DNA of 64,000 bases from Eledone cirrhosa. Lineage: Eukaryota. The notes beneath the pieces are model-generated. The model saw nothing but the letters and a program-made list of their open reading frames with translations. It did no database searches and had not been told where the DNA came from. Made by a program: the position numbers and the translations under genes. The stretch lies in assembly GCA_964016885.1 (NCBI GenBank), contig OZ024743.1, positions 259,346,001 to 259,410,000 on the forward strand. Reading direction: 5' to 3'. Positions 26,757-54,184 of the stretch are shown piece after piece (within the stretch, counting starts at the first letter, position 1; each line of letters starts with the position of its first letter).

Positions 26757-26805
26757 ATATATATATAGTTAAAAGAATAGAGGTGTAACACACAAGTTAT
26801 TATTA

Positions 26806-27183
26806 ATTGGTAAACGGAATAGAAAATGCTGACAAATTGTTCACAGTTGAAAAATAGTTTAATTAGGAATAAAAGAGTATTAGTGATTGTATTGGTTAGT
26901 ATTCAGTTGTGGTTTTAAGTTTTTACCGGTTGCGCATTTCTAAATGCTTTTCAAAAATAATTTTGAGATAGTGCGTCCGTGTTGTTAGCTCTGATCTGAG
27001 CTAACAACACGGACGCTCTATCTTAAAATTATTTTTGAAAAGCATTTAGAAATGCGCAACCGGTAAAAACTTAAAACCACAACTGAATACTAACCAATAC
27101 AATCACTAATACTCTTTTATTCCTAATTAAACTATTTTTCAACTGTGAACAATTTGTCAGCATTTTCTATTCCGTTTACCAAT
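26806..27183. repeat. Near-perfect palindrome with 186-bp arms and a 6-nt centre (26992-26997)
   Basis: The arms pair end to end (coordinate sum 53989) with about 2 mismatches. It lies between (TA)n tracts. Confidence 0.95.
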
Positions 27184-27193
27184 ATATATATAT

Positions 27194-35665: not shown

Positions 35666-35695
<30 letters not shown>

Positions 35696-35705
<10 letters not shown>

Positions 35706-36121
35706 AGATCAAAAGATGGTTAAAAGAGTTCCATGTATTTTATTATGCGCATTTCAAAAACAAATATCATCATGCAATAACATTTGTGTTTTCATCAGAT
35801 AAAATAGGAAGACATGATATGAAGGTTAAAAAACACTTGTGAATAGTGCAGTTTTAAATCAACATATCATATTGATTTAAAACTGCACTATTCACAAGTG
35901 TTTTTTAACCTTCATATCATGTCTTCCTATTTTATCTGATGAAAACACAAATGTTATTGCATGATGATATTTGTTTTTGAAATGCGCATAATAAAATACA
36001 TGGAACTCTTTTAACCATCTTTTGATTTTATATATTATGTATACTCCAGTCCTACAAACTGTAGAGTGCTTCTTATCCGATATCTGCATTGCTTTATTGT
36101 ACTACAACAAAACTCACCTTC

Positions 36122-36125
<4 letters not shown>
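35696..36125 (+). mobile_element. Fold-back HHR element: 167-bp arms (35696-35862 / 35872-36038) plus an ~85-bp unpaired tail, inside (TA)n
   Basis: The arms pair (coordinate sum 71734) with about 1 mismatch, and there is a hammerhead in each arm. Confidence 0.9.
35928..35998 (+). ncRNA. Type I hammerhead ribozyme (mirror copy on the - strand at 35736-35806)
   Basis: tattttat-CTGATGA-[aaac-acaaatgttatt-gcat-gatgatatttgt-tttt]-GAAA-t-gcgc-a-TA-ataaaata. 8-bp stem I and AUA site at 35990. Confidence 0.9.
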
Positions 36126-36166
<41 letters not shown>

Positions 36167-36364
36167 ATACTTGGGGAGGGTCATATTTGTGTAATATTGC
36201 CAGAATTAATAACAGAACACACTCACTGTTTGGTTGGTTTTCGCTTTTCGCTTCTGTGTCTTTTATATCGGTAATCTAATTCATTCGGTCCTCAATGTTG
36301 CCATTGACTGACCAACGGTAAAAAATAATACAGATACAATATAGACACAAACATATATATAGTT

Positions 36365-36407
36365 TATCAAAGTTCTTTCGTTGCACATCTGCAACATCGT
36401 CAGTGGT
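36365..36407 (-). ncRNA. Minimal hammerhead-like motif at the PLE 3' end
   Basis: Reverse complement reads acca-CTGACGA-t-gttgca-gatg-tgcaac-GAAA-gaac-TT-tgat. Stem II is strong, stems I and III are weak. Confidence 0.65.
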
Positions 36408-36702
36408 GCTATTGTTTCCTCACGTTGCATTGTATTTTCTACGCCATCTTTATTTAGTCTGTTTATATATTTATTTATTTAGTTATTTTATTTTGTCTTC
36501 TTTGCGCATGCGTTTGCGTGTGTGTATAGTGTTTTGTTTGATGTGTGTTCGTGATTGGGTGACTGTGTATTGGTTAATGTAGTCTATCTTTACTAGTGTG
36601 TGTTTATATGTGTTTGTTGTTATTGTGCTTGTGTATTTATTTATTTATTTATTTATTTATCTATTTATTTATTTACACTTCTCTTAGGTCAGTGTTGTTT
36701 AT

Positions 36703-36996
36703 TTAGGTGTTGTTGTTATTCCATTCATTCTTTCTGTTTAGCCTTGGCGTTCTAAGTTCTATTTCACTGGCCTCTCTGATTTGCCTATCTGCTGGGTCAT
36801 TTCTATGTTTATATATTATTCTAATTTCTATGTTGTCTATGTTACCGTCGTGTTGTTGTCTGGCATGTTCGTATAGTACTGAACCGTCTTTTAGTCCTTT
36901 TAGTTCCCCCCAGTGTTGGTCTGTCCTTTCTCCTATGCTACGAGCTGTTTCGCCTATGTATGTTGTTGTCATGTTCTGCAAGTACCCTCTGTACAT
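36703..36996 (-). pseudogene. GIY-YIG endonuclease domain of the Penelope-like element
   Basis: YIGETARSIGERTDQH...LYEHARQQH...RQIREASEIELRTPRLN. Confidence 0.9.
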
Positions 36997-38294
36997 CTTA
37001 TACTATAGACTACGTTTCTAGTTTTACAGTTTATCCGAGGATTTACCTTACATATGATACATTTCCTATTAGTACAGTGGGTTTTCTTAAAAGGGTAGGT
37101 TTTACTGATCAGGGATTTTATGGTGGTTCCTGGCTTTTCTACCACCTTAATCTTTAAGTGGGTCTTTCTCAGGGCCTTTCTACACTGGTTAGCTAATTTC
37201 CCTCCAGGGTTAGCGTTCACAAACATGACACTCTGGTATCTCTGGTTGTCGTACCATGAGGTGGCTTTCCTTATCTTATGTCTAGCCCTATCTAAGCTAT
37301 TCTATGATTTGCTCCTGTATAATGGGCAAATTCCTTTCATGTCCAGTTCTATGAGGGTCTTATACTTCTCCATGTCTCCTTCGTATACTCTGACTCTGTC
37401 TCTTTGGTTGTAGCCATAGAACTGCATGTGGTTGATGAAGTGTTGGATGTGTCTTTCCATTTCTGTTGGGTCGCACATGCGGGACACATTCTTCATCACT
37501 CGTACCAAATCTGCGATCAGAATATTAAACTTAGCACTACTGGACATTGCTGAGTTTTTGAGTATCAGGTATTTGGAGGCTATGGGTTCAGCATAGTGTG
37601 AGTGGAGAATTTGGGCTCTCTCGTCTATAGTGTTAATCCAGAGTTCCGTGTCTAATACAGGTAGTCTATTTTTAGGGTGTTTGGAAGGGTAGTCGATAGT
37701 TACAGTTATACTCTGGTCTATGGAATTAGCTATCTGCTGGATGCTTTCCATTGTGCTACGTTCTAAATCAAACTTGTTAGTGCTCTCTAGTGGGGGTGTT
37801 CTTATAACTATATTGATATCGTCTACGTAACGAGAGTACATGATGAGGTCTATGGAGATCTTTAAGTCTTCTTTCCCACCATACCATAAAAAATTTGGCA
37901 ACATCACCAGCTATGCTGACGCCAATGGCTGCTCCCTCATTTTGTATGTAGATCTTCTCGTTGAACTTGAATATGTGGCCCTTTAGGGAAGTTTTGATAC
38001 TAGCCCCTATTGCATGTGCGACCATTTTTCTTACCTGATCATTGTTTTGTGGTGTCCGTATAGCTTTGGTCCACCCAATCCACCTTCCCATGGGAGTCTT
38101 TTTAGCCATTGAGGTTATGGTGGGGGTTCTACTTCTTATGGGTCTACTGGGGAAGAAACGTCTAAGGTCATGGCTATCTAGGTAGTCAGTGTCGTAGGTA
38201 AGTCTAAGTAGGAGGCCCAGTTCGTCTGTGTCGACGTCGGTCCACATCATCATGTGAGCGTTGGGGATTATATATATATATAGACACACATATA

Positions 38295-38492: not shown

Positions 38493-39068
38493 CAGAAAGA
38501 GTAGGTATTGCTTCAGTAAATATATTTATCAGAACAGAAAATTGACAATGTCAAAATAAATCAGAAATATAGAATTGATTATATTTACATGAGAAAGATT
38601 TGTGTTACTGGTTCAGTTAATGGCAACGTGAATTGTTGCTAATTGAAATATGCTTACTTCGTTGAGACAACTGAAACCACCATATTCCATTAATAGCCGA
38701 CGAAGGACCATATAATAAACAACTTTATCTGCTGGAAATAGTAGGTGTATCATCTACAAATCAGATCATACTGTCCTTAAAACGGAAGAACATGGATAAT
38801 ATATTCCTAAATACACTGTACTTATCAAAAACACGGGAGGGGTTTAGCTGGAAAGTGTTTTATTATAGATGTCTTCTAGTTTAAAATAGACGCTGTGTAA
38901 GCATAATGGGGTGGCTAAGTAGTTCGCTTCGTAACCACATTGTTGTGTGTTCAGTCTTAGTAATAATAATAAATTGGAAGACTAAAATACAAAGAGGGCT
39001 CGATAAGATAAATATATATCAAATATATAAAAACCGTAGAGCAAATATTTATTAAAATAACAGATTAA

Positions 39069-39119
39069 AGTTTAAGCAAAGAATCGCTGCTTTCACTCTT
39101 AACGGGATCTTCTGAAACT
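39069..39119 (-). ncRNA. Variant hammerhead (CAGAAGA core), HHR-A
   Basis: Reverse complement reads agttt-CAGAAGA-t-cccgttaagag-t-GAAA-gca-gcgattctt-tgc-TT-aaact. The same variant core occurs at 54018-54068. Confidence 0.65.
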
Positions 39120-39317
39120 CTACGGTTTTTATATATATTATATATATATATAATCCTTATCGAGCCCTCTTCGGATTTTAGACTTCACATCTATTATTAT
39201 TGCTATTTATTTGGGAGGACTGCTGGATTTTCTAATCTACCAGTCTCTTAGCGCTGAGGGAGACCATCACCATTCTATTAATGTCGATATAATTCTTATA
39301 TCGATATTATTAGGGCA

Positions 39318-39441
39318 TCCACTGATGAGTTTATAAGAGCCCGCTTGTGTATAAAACTATCGATTATATACAAGTTTCTACATAACTTGGAAATTATTTA
39401 TCCCAAATTGTAGAAATCTTATAACGAAACGGCCGTCTGGA
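39318..39441 (+). ncRNA. Type I hammerhead with a large branched stem II, HHR-B
   Basis: tcca-CTGATGA-gtttataaga-[two hairpins]-tcttataac-GAAA-c-ggcc-g-TC-tgga. GUC site at 39437. Confidence 0.9.
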
Positions 39442-39619
39442 AGGAAAGAGATATTTATTTAATAATGTCTCATATAAAATAATACAACCAGCTATCCACG
39501 AAATACTGATTAGTTATCCCCCCAAACACTAAATTGGGATAATACTTAAGTATATCCTAATGTTTGTTGAGTGAGATGGAGTTGGTCGGAGTATCGCTTA
39601 AGGCTTTCTCTGTTTATGT

Positions 39620-39662
<43 letters not shown>

Positions 39663-39695
39663 TATTGTATATATATATATATACAATACATAAAC

Positions 39696-40431
<736 letters not shown>

Positions 40432-46236: not shown

Positions 46237-47680
46237 TATATGAAATATAAGAATCAAAGAACTGTTCAAAACATTATTGTGCTTACAGCTGTTTCCTCCA
46301 AACCGAGGTTTGGATTCTTCGGAGCAATTTATTAATGCATGGACAGTTATATGACCTCCTTTTCAGCCGAGAGACATACCAATACATATTCAAACATTGA
46401 TACATATTCAAACATTGTGGGTCAACATTCATTACAGAATTTAGAGTGGCAGTACACACTTCGAGATTACATTTATATTAATAGGTACAATCAAAAATCA
46501 AAGATATAGGTTAAAGTACAACATGAAGATAAGTGGTTATATAGTGCAAATGTTATATGTGTGGCACGCATGTGCGTCTTGTTTATATAGTGTGGCAGAG
46601 AGATATGTGTGGTAGAGGCACTTAGGTAGGTAAATAAGAGTGTTAGGTTGGTAGATCTGGTGGCAAAGTCTTTATATGATTGATATAGTCTGTGTGTGGA
46701 GAAATATTATAAGCATTAAAGATAGTGCAAGCATTAAAAGTGTTATAAGTATTGGAGATGCACAGCGCAGGGATGTCAAGTAATTCATGTACTTCGGCAT
46801 TTTCATGGTCAAGGGAGTGTATATTTCGATTATATGCCTTTCACATAATCCACGACAATCCAGTTAAAGAACACCAGACTACGATCTCTAACTGGATTGT
46901 CGTGGATTATGTGAAAGGCATATAATCGAAATATACACTCCCTTGACCATGAAAATGCCGAAGTACATGAATTACTTGACATCCCTGCGCTGTGCATCTC
47001 CAATACTTATAACACTTTTAATGCTTGCACTATCTTTAATGCTTATAATATTTCTCCACACACAGACTATATCAATCATATAAAGACTTTGCCACCAGAT
47101 CTACCAACCTAACACTCTTATTTACCTACCTAAGTGCCTCTACCACACATATCTCTCTGCCACACTATATAAACAAGACGCACATGCGTGCCACACATAT
47201 AACATTTGCACTATATAACCACTTATCTTCATGTTGTACTTTAACCTATATCTTTGATTTTTGATTGTACCTATTAATATAAATGTAATCTCGAAGTGTG
47301 TACTGCCACTCTAAATTCTGTAATGAATGTTGACCCACAATGTTTGAATATGTATCAATGTTTGAATATGTATTGGTATGTCTCTCGGCTGAAAAGGAGG
47401 TCATATAACTGTCCATGCATTAATAAATTGCTCCGAAGAATCCAAACCTCGGTTTGGAGGAAACAGCTGTAAGCACAATAATGTTTTGAACAGTTCTTTG
47501 ATTCTTATATTTCATATAACTGCTCTGTAAATCATCTGATGTTTTTGCATTGAGCTACTTAACTTACTGGTAATAAGGTAGTAATACATTACTGCCTACC
47601 ACTGTTTAGGGTGTGTGTAAAATACTTACAACTGCTTAAGGTTTTGTGTTTACATAACCATAAATAGTATAACTAATACT
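46237..47680 (+). mobile_element. Penelope-like 3' end with inverted pLTR: 634-bp arms (46237-46870 / 46885-47518), 14-nt loop and ~160-bp tail
   Basis: The constant coordinate sum 93755 holds at the ends, the centre and the HHRs. The right arm begins with DCRGLCERHIIEIYTP, which resembles a GIY-YIG C-terminus. (TA)n on both sides. Confidence 0.9.
47429..47475 (+). ncRNA. Hammerhead with CCGAAGA (U4C) core (mirror copy on the - strand at 46280-46326)
   Basis: tgct-CCGAAGA-a-tccaaac-ctcg-gtttgga-g-GAAA-c-agct-g-TA-agca. GUA site at 47471. Confidence 0.8.
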
Positions 47681-53904: not shown

Positions 53905-53907
<3 letters not shown>

Positions 53908-54184
53908 TAATAATAATAAACGTAAAGACAAAAATCCGAAGAGGGCTCGATAAGGATAATATATATATCAAATATTTAAAAACCATAGAGCAAATAATTA
54001 TTAAAATAACAGATTAGAGTTTAAGCAAATAATTGCTGCTTTCACCCTTAACGGGATCTTCTGAAACTAAAAAAAAATTCAATCTGTGGACGTAGAAGTA
54101 AATATTTCGAAAATCGGTTACAACGTTTTTTCGAAATATTTACTTCTGCGCCGACAGATGGATTTCTTTTTAGTTTCAGAAGAT
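53905..54184. mobile_element. Second copy of the 39-kb family with a hairpin at 54056-54184
   Basis: Matches 38960-39119 and has an imperfect palindrome centred near 54120. Confidence 0.8.
54018..54068 (-). ncRNA. Variant hammerhead (CAGAAGA core)
   Basis: Reverse complement reads agttt-CAGAAGA-t-ccc-gttaa-ggg-t-GAAA-gca-gcaattatt-tgc-TT-aaact. Confidence 0.7.

What the first reader, a model, noticed from the sequence alone, without database searches (positions are those of the whole stretch)
38960..39545. Element with two different hammerheads in series, one with a CAGAAGA core and one with a branched ~97-nt stem II
Seen: unfolding the inversion puts HHR-A (U4A core, conserved again at 54018-54068) about 350 nt upstream of HHR-B on the same sense RNA. 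Stem II of HHR-B carries two extra hairpins (cttgtgtataa/ttatatacaag and tttctaca..ttgg/ccaa..tgtagaaa), forming a multi-way junction. Inference: a heterologous HHR pair could excise a ~350-nt RNA, and the stem II domain might be a protein-binding or regulatory module. Such large stem II inserts are unusual in minimal HHRs.
Basis: partly seen in the sequence, partly recalled or inferred. Interest (0 to 1): 0.75.

Follow-up and report, generated by a model that had tools for sequence, protein, structure and literature searches.

The report
Branched hammerhead retrozyme abutting Penelope end
The two hammerhead motifs belong to two unrelated jumping repeats joined in this way at only one spot found in this animal genome; the second, with an oversized branched arm kept across five related repeat families, is predicted to cut its own RNA, while the first carries a fixed core change that likely cripples it.

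Summary
Both motifs exist, but they are not one element. They lie on opposite strands, and their junction pattern matches once in the 3-Gb genome.

HHR-A (CAGAAGA core) is the terminal repeat of a Hydra-clade Penelope-like retrotransposon. The genome has 23,394 exact copies with A4 and 106 with U4, and no excess of 5' ends at the predicted cut.

HHR-B belongs to a separate ~760-nt non-coding retrozyme. Its 3' end is fixed at GTATTG|(TA)n in 89 of 90 sampled sites, and some copies exceed one unit. Both families target (TA)n, so they meet by nesting; the 350-nt excised RNA is not supported.

What survives is HHR-B's 97-nt stem II with two extra hairpins. It recurs in five related families (four compared over the monomer: 62-79% identical), with double-sided changes in 18 of 36 pairs. 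A conserved GGGY/GCCC match suggests a pseudoknot, and stem III stays palindromic. Cleavage is untested.

The scan noted both features earlier on other DNA of this genome (e1-8673761, e1-10304421, e1-10330111). Verdict: new structural variant of a known kind.

The parts
38958..39119 (-). Family A (Hydra-clade Penelope-like element) 3' terminal repeat, inverted arm; 5'-truncated, ends ATTATTAC
   Evidence: 97-98% identical to the 40 best-scored of 2,192 candidates; family ends ATTATTAC|(TA)n; ORF upstream in other copies
39069..39119 (-). HHR-A: type I hammerhead-shaped motif with A4 (39113), U10.1.U11.1, CUU triplet, predicted cut between 39074 and 39073; stem II has a private C.A mismatch here
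   Evidence: sequence; 23,394 vs 106 exact matches for A4 vs U4; no fold signal; no 5'-end excess at the cut
39118..39205 (+). Second, more diverged family A 3' end (direct arm, head-to-head with the first); carries no hammerhead
   Evidence: 84% to the inverted arm, alignment
39195..39222 (+). A-to-B junction; only TAT remains of A's (TA)n tail
   Evidence: pattern matches once in the genome
39206..39623 (+). 5'-truncated copy of family B1, a ~760-nt non-coding retrozyme; 3' end GTATTG followed by (TA)n
   Evidence: 95-97% to the top copies, 2,418 candidates; circularly permuted tandem structure; longest ATG ORF 43 aa in two long copies
39313..39316 (+). GGGC just 5' of stem I, predicted pseudoknot partner of GCCC
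   Evidence: GGGY present in the majority line or most copies of all five families; no double-sided change
39318..39441 (+). HHR-B: type I hammerhead, canonical CUGAUGA/GAAA/GUC core, predicted cut after 39437
   Evidence: covariation
39329..39425 (+). 97-nt stem II: 9-bp base helix, GCCCG linker (39339-43), hairpin IIa (39344-74), hairpin IIb (39375-39416) forming a three-way junction
   Evidence: MFE fold; double-sided changes in 4/8, 7/10 and 3/8 pairs
39624..39683 (.). (TA)n target microsatellite with a short CAATGTATTG insert
39684..39699 (-). 16-nt inverted copy of B's 3' end, tail-to-tail across the (TA)n
53905..54068 (-). Another solitary family A end with the CAGAAGA motif, no B attached
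   Evidence: 90% to 38958-39119; sequence

Best explanation
The locus is a composite of two independent (TA)n-targeting repeats: a head-to-head pair of Penelope-like (Hydra-clade) element ends carrying a likely crippled U4A hammerhead, and a truncated non-coding retrozyme that likely inserted into that pair's TA tail and carries a branched hammerhead predicted to self-cleave. Shown: separate families, opposite strands, unique junction, fixed B 3' end, copies longer than one unit, covarying branched stem II. Inferred mechanism for B: more-than-unit transcripts are cut by HHR-B, probably as a dimer through the palindromic stem III, with a GGGY/GCCC pseudoknot replacing the usual loop I-loop II contact. 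The ~760-nt product is re-ligated or stays multimeric. A Penelope RT/GIY-YIG enzyme nicks (TA)n, primes at B's internal AU-rich site and copies 50-1,200 nt through the intact ribozyme junction. The two extra hairpins are a conserved structural domain whose role (folding scaffold, or handle for the borrowed RT) is open.
For: Non-linkage. An A core lies on the same strand within 1.5 kb upstream of a B core in 5 of 149 B loci (sets partly overlap), at five different distances (240-1,309 nt), always across TA runs; 0 of 89 A loci show it. Family A is a PLE: RT LYRDDG, DKT, RWR, CxCX5C linker, GIY-YIG match the Hydra description (PMC8557442 section 11). Family B: 3' end at monomer 181-194 in 89 of 90 sites; 65 of 90 cross the cut site and 9 exceed one monomer; relatives B2-B4 occur as tandem copies with 679-, 703- and 998-nt periods. 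Structure: 89% of cells paired vs 33-45% in slid controls, 18 of 36 pairs with double-sided changes. Stem III is a different palindrome in B1, B4 and B5 and near-palindromic in B2 and B3. 10 B 5' ends fall within 21 nt after the cut (3.8 expected, p=0.006) and none in the 42 nt before it (7.1 expected).
Against: No cleavage or RNA data. The 5'-end excess at B's cut is not unique: two other windows score better. Exact A/T-flanked junctions number only 5 at the cut vs 0 and 3 at controls. Covariation comes from five lineages, so each change is about one event; pairs with double changes exceed shuffles only weakly (28/500), and the inner part of hairpin IIb shows none. Unconstrained RNAalifold recovered stems I, II-base, III and the base of IIa but not IIb. 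The 30 rows were picked for an intact core and GCCC, so GCCC invariance in that alignment is by construction; unselected B1 copies have it in 25 of 29. The pseudoknot shows only one-sided changes, and the same pairing appears as a competing nested helix in the MFE folds of B2, B4 and one B5 copy. The order of insertion at this locus and the mobilising enzyme were not determined.
Confidence: 0.8

Rival explanations
1. The composite arose in one event by template jumping: a Hydra-type RT copied B RNA, jumped to family A RNA at A's normal priming site, and met a second A cDNA primed from the other strand. This would make family A the enzyme donor for B. It is still a one-off chimera, not a two-ribozyme element.
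For: The junction falls exactly at A's usual 3' end with no (TA)n left. Head-to-head A pairs are common. Both families end in (TA)n.
Against: The other A-then-B neighbours keep TA runs between them, as nesting predicts. The two A arms are different variants. Nothing ties B to A's enzyme rather than to other PLEs in the genome.
Confidence: 0.2
2. One reading: a single element whose sense RNA carries HHR-A and HHR-B in series and excises a ~350-nt RNA.
For: The unfolded spacing is 352 nt. One other locus (L025) has A then B on one strand 240 nt apart.
Against: Opposite strands here. Junction unique. L025 has a different, TA-filled junction. Copy numbers differ greatly: 23,394 exact A-core matches vs 344 and 292 for two B1 motifs. 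Each family has its own upstream sequence.
Confidence: 0.02
3. HHR-B's branched domain is kept for RT recognition or RNA stability, and HHR-B cleaves little or not at all in vivo; copies come from uncut multimeric transcripts.
For: 65 of 90 copies read through an intact cut site. Family A spread to more than 23,000 copies with a core change expected to be damaging. PLE hammerheads cleave poorly in vitro (PMC4209133).
Against: All five B families keep a consensus core and an NUH triplet while stems and loops diverge. There is some 5'-end excess just after the cut. Read-through is equally expected from circular templates.
Confidence: 0.2

Closest known systems
Metazoan non-LTR retrozymes (Cervera and de la Pena 2020, PMC7229834, passages and sections 14-15 read; Li et al. 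2026, bioRxiv 10.64898/2026.07.22.740005, parts 1-2 of 5 read)
   Same: Non-coding, low-GC repeat (33%) with one type I hammerhead per unit; monomers to tandem copies; palindromic short stem III suited to dimer cleavage; coexists with PLEs. A U.U mismatch at the base of stem II (B2, B4) has a precedent in axolotl HHR_Amex2.
   Different: Stem II is 95-97 nt with a three-way junction instead of a short hairpin. Units are 680-1,000 nt, at the top of the reported range (51-972 bp). B1 is mostly dispersed 5'-truncated copies in (TA)n. Circular RNA and cleavage are not shown here.
Pseudoknot-stabilised hammerheads (Perreault et al. 2011, PMC3088659, passages and sections 7-8 read)
   Same: Base-pairing between stem I and stem II regions replaces loop-loop contacts; reported for all three types, about 40% of representatives.
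   Different: Here the predicted partner is a junction linker 9 bp up a branched stem II. It is inferred from conservation only, not from double-sided covariation or mutagenesis.
Hydra-clade Penelope-like elements and their pLTR hammerheads (Craig et al. 2021, PMC8557442, passages and section 11 read; Cervera and de la Pena 2014, PMC4209133, parts 1-2 of 4 read)
   Same: Family A has DKT, RWR (RWK-like), the CxCX5C linker, C-terminal GIY-YIG with CxxC and CxH motifs, (TA)n targeting, inverted 5'-truncated copies, and a hammerhead-shaped motif in the terminal repeat.
   Different: The paper reports canonical HHRs in Hydra elements; family A has A4 in 99.5% of exact matches. U4C is reported as a tolerated natural variant (PMC3088659 passage); I found no natural U4A in searches.

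Membership tests
Type I hammerhead (HHR-B) | CUGANGA, GAAA and NUH core in order, with stems I-III | tested here: met
   RF00163 sub-threshold match, 19.5 bits
Type I hammerhead (HHR-B) | Stems supported by compensatory changes | tested here: met
   stem I 3/4, stem II base 4/8, stem III 1/3 pairs with double-sided changes across five families
Type I hammerhead (HHR-B) | [quoted passage not shown] | tested here: inconclusive
   GGGY/GCCC complementarity of 4-5 bp in 29 of 30 selected rows, one-sided changes only
Type I hammerhead (HHR-B) | Self-cleavage at NUH | not testable with these tools
   only an indirect, weak 5'-end excess
Type I hammerhead (HHR-A) | Conserved core with U4 | tested here: not met
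   A4 in 23,394 vs U4 in 106 exact matches; no Rfam hammerhead match
Type I hammerhead (HHR-A) | Three stems around the core | tested here: inconclusive
   stems can be drawn but fold z-scores are about 0, and no diverged family was available for covariation
Type I hammerhead (HHR-A) | Self-cleavage | not testable with these tools
   no genomic footprint: TA junctions number 103 at the cut vs 73, 140 and 186 at controls
Non-LTR retrozyme (family B) | Non-coding repeat unit with one type I HHR | tested here: met
   762-nt unit; longest ATG ORFs 40-46 aa in B1-B4 samples
Non-LTR retrozyme (family B) | Tandem or more-than-unit genomic copies | tested here: met
   B1 copies up to about 1.6 units, some with two cut-site junctions; tandem copies in B2, B3 and B4
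Non-LTR retrozyme (family B) | Expressed as linear and circular RNA | not testable with these tools
   no RNA run available (see Tried and rejected)
Hydra-clade PLE (family A) | RT plus C-terminal GIY-YIG, DKT, RWK-like motif, CxCX5C linker, CxxC/CxH around E and N, (TA)n targeting | tested here: met
   motifs read in P0001 and P0002 (CxxC intact in L201 and L205) against PMC8557442 section 11; no tree built; Pfam and PDB gave no significant hit
Hydra-clade PLE (family A) | Canonical HHR in the terminal repeat | tested here: not met
   U4A fixed

The most novel reading that the evidence does not exclude
A superfamily of animal retrozymes (at least five families, thousands of copies) uses an active hammerhead of undescribed architecture. 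Stem II is expanded into a three-way junction whose GCCC linker forms a pseudoknot with the strand 5' of stem I, and the two extra hairpins act as the handle by which the RNA recruits a Penelope RT or gates cleavage. Meanwhile the autonomous Hydra element next to it has spread to more than 23,000 copies with a dead U4A ribozyme.
Probability: 0.35. Interest if true: 0.65.

Novelty: new variant of a known kind. Interest (0 to 1): 0.4.

Why it matters
The proposed two-ribozyme device is an accident of nesting, which is ordinary in (TA)n-rich genomes. The branched, probably pseudoknotted hammerhead is missed by Rfam's threshold and by short-stem descriptors, so retrozyme surveys undercount such families. 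It offers a natural scaffold for testing how peripheral domains tune hammerhead cleavage and how non-autonomous RNAs recruit Penelope RTs. The U4A family is a natural test of whether Penelope-like elements need a working ribozyme, which PMC8557442 calls unclear.

Tried and rejected
Whole-window Rfam scan: only microsatellite and palindrome noise, no hammerhead among the 150 rows shown of 178. Repeat finder was swamped by microsatellites.

Search for RNA runs holding family B: no RNA holder listed, no evidence either way. Contigs of four runs of unrecorded kind (one study) support the left flank-A junction (38850-39006), but no listed piece bridges the A-B junction, which proves nothing.

Clade assignment therefore rests on motifs.

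A hidden U4 subfamily of A was rejected: the 15 of 106 U4 sites examined are ordinary A copies, several at inversion junctions.

In 30 unbiased A copies, 17 5' ends lie at +4 to +65 after the predicted cut and 13 upstream. That looked like a cleavage step, but genome-wide junction counts showed no peak at the cut.

tblastn found PLE pieces near some B loci. I did not inspect each junction and did not identify an autonomous partner. The covariance model found no sixth family in the 100 of about 300 sources searched.

Literature searches listed no natural hammerhead with a branched stem II and no natural U4A core. Most hits were seen only as listings. Lunse et al. 2017 on PLE hammerhead variants was not held, and no supplements were read (for example Perreault Figs S6-S7, Craig file S2), so either feature may be described there.

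Full report
Setting. The window is G000:C4:259346001-259410000 of a 3.0-Gb animal genome rich in microsatellites.

Observation. HHR-B is on the + strand at 39318-39441 with a canonical core, a 97-nt stem II and a GUC site after 39437. Rfam sees it only below threshold (RF00163, 19.5 bits vs 34). HHR-A is on the - strand at 39119-39069 with CAGAAGA, a U.U pair at the base of stem II and a CUU triplet. It has no Rfam match and no folding signal. The inversion is real and the unfolded distance between the predicted cuts is 352 nt, but no single transcript of this locus carries both motifs in sense.

Two families, not one. A search with 39200-39560 gave 2,418 candidates, 40 scored. In 28 of 29 other fetched copies similarity starts at window 39204-39210, and upstream lies B's own sequence, (TA)n or unrelated DNA (partly cut). 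A search with 38958-39119 gave 2,192 candidates. All 29 other fetched copies end at ATTATTAC, followed by TA repeats or by A's own downstream sequence, and none has B within 1.5 kb. A degenerate pattern across the A-B junction matches once in the genome. Across 149 B loci (partly overlapping sets), 5 have an A core upstream on the same strand, at 240, 470, 559, 829 and 1,309 nt, each with TA runs between; 0 of 89 A loci do.

Family A. Tandem copies place the motif between the end of one ORF and the start of the next. The protein has RT motif LYRDDG, a CxCX5C linker, GIY-YIG (AYIGLT) and C-terminal CxxC/CxH-type motifs, plus RWR and DKT. This matches the Hydra clade as described in PMC8557442 section 11, including (TA)n targeting. 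Earlier scan notes named the clade and prompted this check. A4 is the founding state: 23,394 exact matches versus 106 with U4, and the 15 U4 sites examined are ordinary copies. Mutations in the CUGA turn gave low activity in a deep scan of another hammerhead (PMC9901934 passages), while U10.1.U11.1 and U4C are tolerated natural variants (PMC3088659). (TA)n junctions at the predicted cut (103) are not above matched positions at +7 (73), -28 (140) and -46 (186). I infer a weak or dead ribozyme, at about 75%. The window copy is further damaged by a stem II mismatch and loss of the distal stem I strand.

Family B. The unit is 762 nt, 33% GC and non-coding. I sampled the first 90 of 344 exact hits to a 3'-end motif, in genome order. 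In 89 the 3' end lies at monomer 181-194, mostly followed by (TA)n, and 5' ends are scattered. Of the 90, 65 cross the ribozyme cut site and 9 exceed one monomer (L120 and L121 are one insertion). This points to a circular or multimeric template primed internally, as proposed for retrozymes and PLEs (PMC7229834, PMC4209133). Ten 5' ends fall in the 21 nt after the cut (3.8 expected) and none in the 42 nt before it (7.1 expected). Two other windows are as enriched, one of them next to where the window copy itself starts, and exact junction counts are 5 vs 0 and 3. This is weak evidence for cleavage in vivo.

The branched stem II is real. Flanks revealed four relatives, B2-B5; B1-B4 monomers are 62-79% identical in aligned segments, with periods of 762, 679, 703 and 998 nt. 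I aligned six intact copies per family, selected for core and GCCC. With the structure I wrote, 89% of cells pair, against 79% in shuffles and 33-45% in slid controls. Eighteen of 36 pairs change on both sides: stem I 3/4, stem II base 4/8, IIa 7/10, IIb 3/8, inner IIb 0/3, stem III 1/3. There are only five lineages, the pair-count measure beats shuffles weakly (28/500), and unconstrained RNAalifold missed IIb; single folds of all six sequences tested show IIa, five show the outer IIb helix in full, and the remaining B5 copy keeps only the inner one. Stem III is a palindrome in different sequences (ACGGCCGT, ACGATCGT, ACAATTGT), fitting dimer cleavage. A GCCC linker after the stem II base helix and GGGY just 5' of stem I are kept in all five families and can form 4-5 bp. 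This fits the pseudoknots that brace stems I and II in many hammerheads (PMC3088659 section 7), but only one-sided changes occur, and the same pairing could be an inactive alternative fold. I put the pseudoknot at about 60%.

How the locus arose (inferred). A head-to-head pair of A ends formed first, a structure common in this family and typical of PLEs (PMC8557442 passage). B was then copied into A's TA tail, leaving TAT at the junction and (TA)n on its right. Template jumping in one event is the main rival.

Novelty. Retrozymes, PLE hammerheads and nesting in microsatellites are known. I found no natural branched stem II or U4A core in eight literature searches, with the gaps listed under Tried and rejected. 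Earlier scan notes on other DNA of this genome describe a two-hairpin stem II domain (e1-8673761), pseudoknotted long-stem retrozymes (e1-9820071, e1-9585305) and the fixed U4A family (e1-10304421, e1-10330111); sequence look-ups found no look-alike notes. These notes are not independent support. Verdict: the headline claim is refuted; HHR-B is a new structural variant of a known kind, untested for cleavage; interest 0.4.

Noticed in passing
window 35691-38260 (-): Broken Penelope-like element of another family (YVDD, CX4CxxC linker, GIY-YIG) with a fold-back end at 35691-36043 that carries a CTGATGA hammerhead on both strands (35798 -, 35936 +).
   Followed up: partly
window about 47430 (+); L289, L261: Hammerhead-like motif with a CCGAAGA/CCGATGA (U4C) core, 20-nt stem II and palindromic stem III, recurring in other loci.
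   Followed up: no
window 55321 (+): Another type I hammerhead-like motif with a 31-nt stem II.
   Followed up: no
window 39700-40290: A different repeat directly right of B that also flanks B copies in L002, L008 and L016; identity not determined.
   Followed up: no
L080, L143, L192, L157, L139 and other flanks: Many further hammerhead families with stem II of 12-85 nt, frequently with a mismatch at 10.1-11.1 and palindromic stem III.
   Followed up: no
family A, L032-L060 upstream of the motif: ~130-nt tandem subrepeats in the 3' UTR, and a second fixed 3' end about 25 nt after the predicted cut (TTTTAATAAA|TA), used in many head-to-head pairs.
   Followed up: partly
L337 upstream: Reverse-order chimera: a B-like 3' end joined directly to family A sequence 92 nt before A's predicted cut.
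   Followed up: no
window 46237-47518 and 26801-27188: Long near-perfect palindromes (634-nt and 194-nt arms), possibly double-primed insertions.
   Followed up: no
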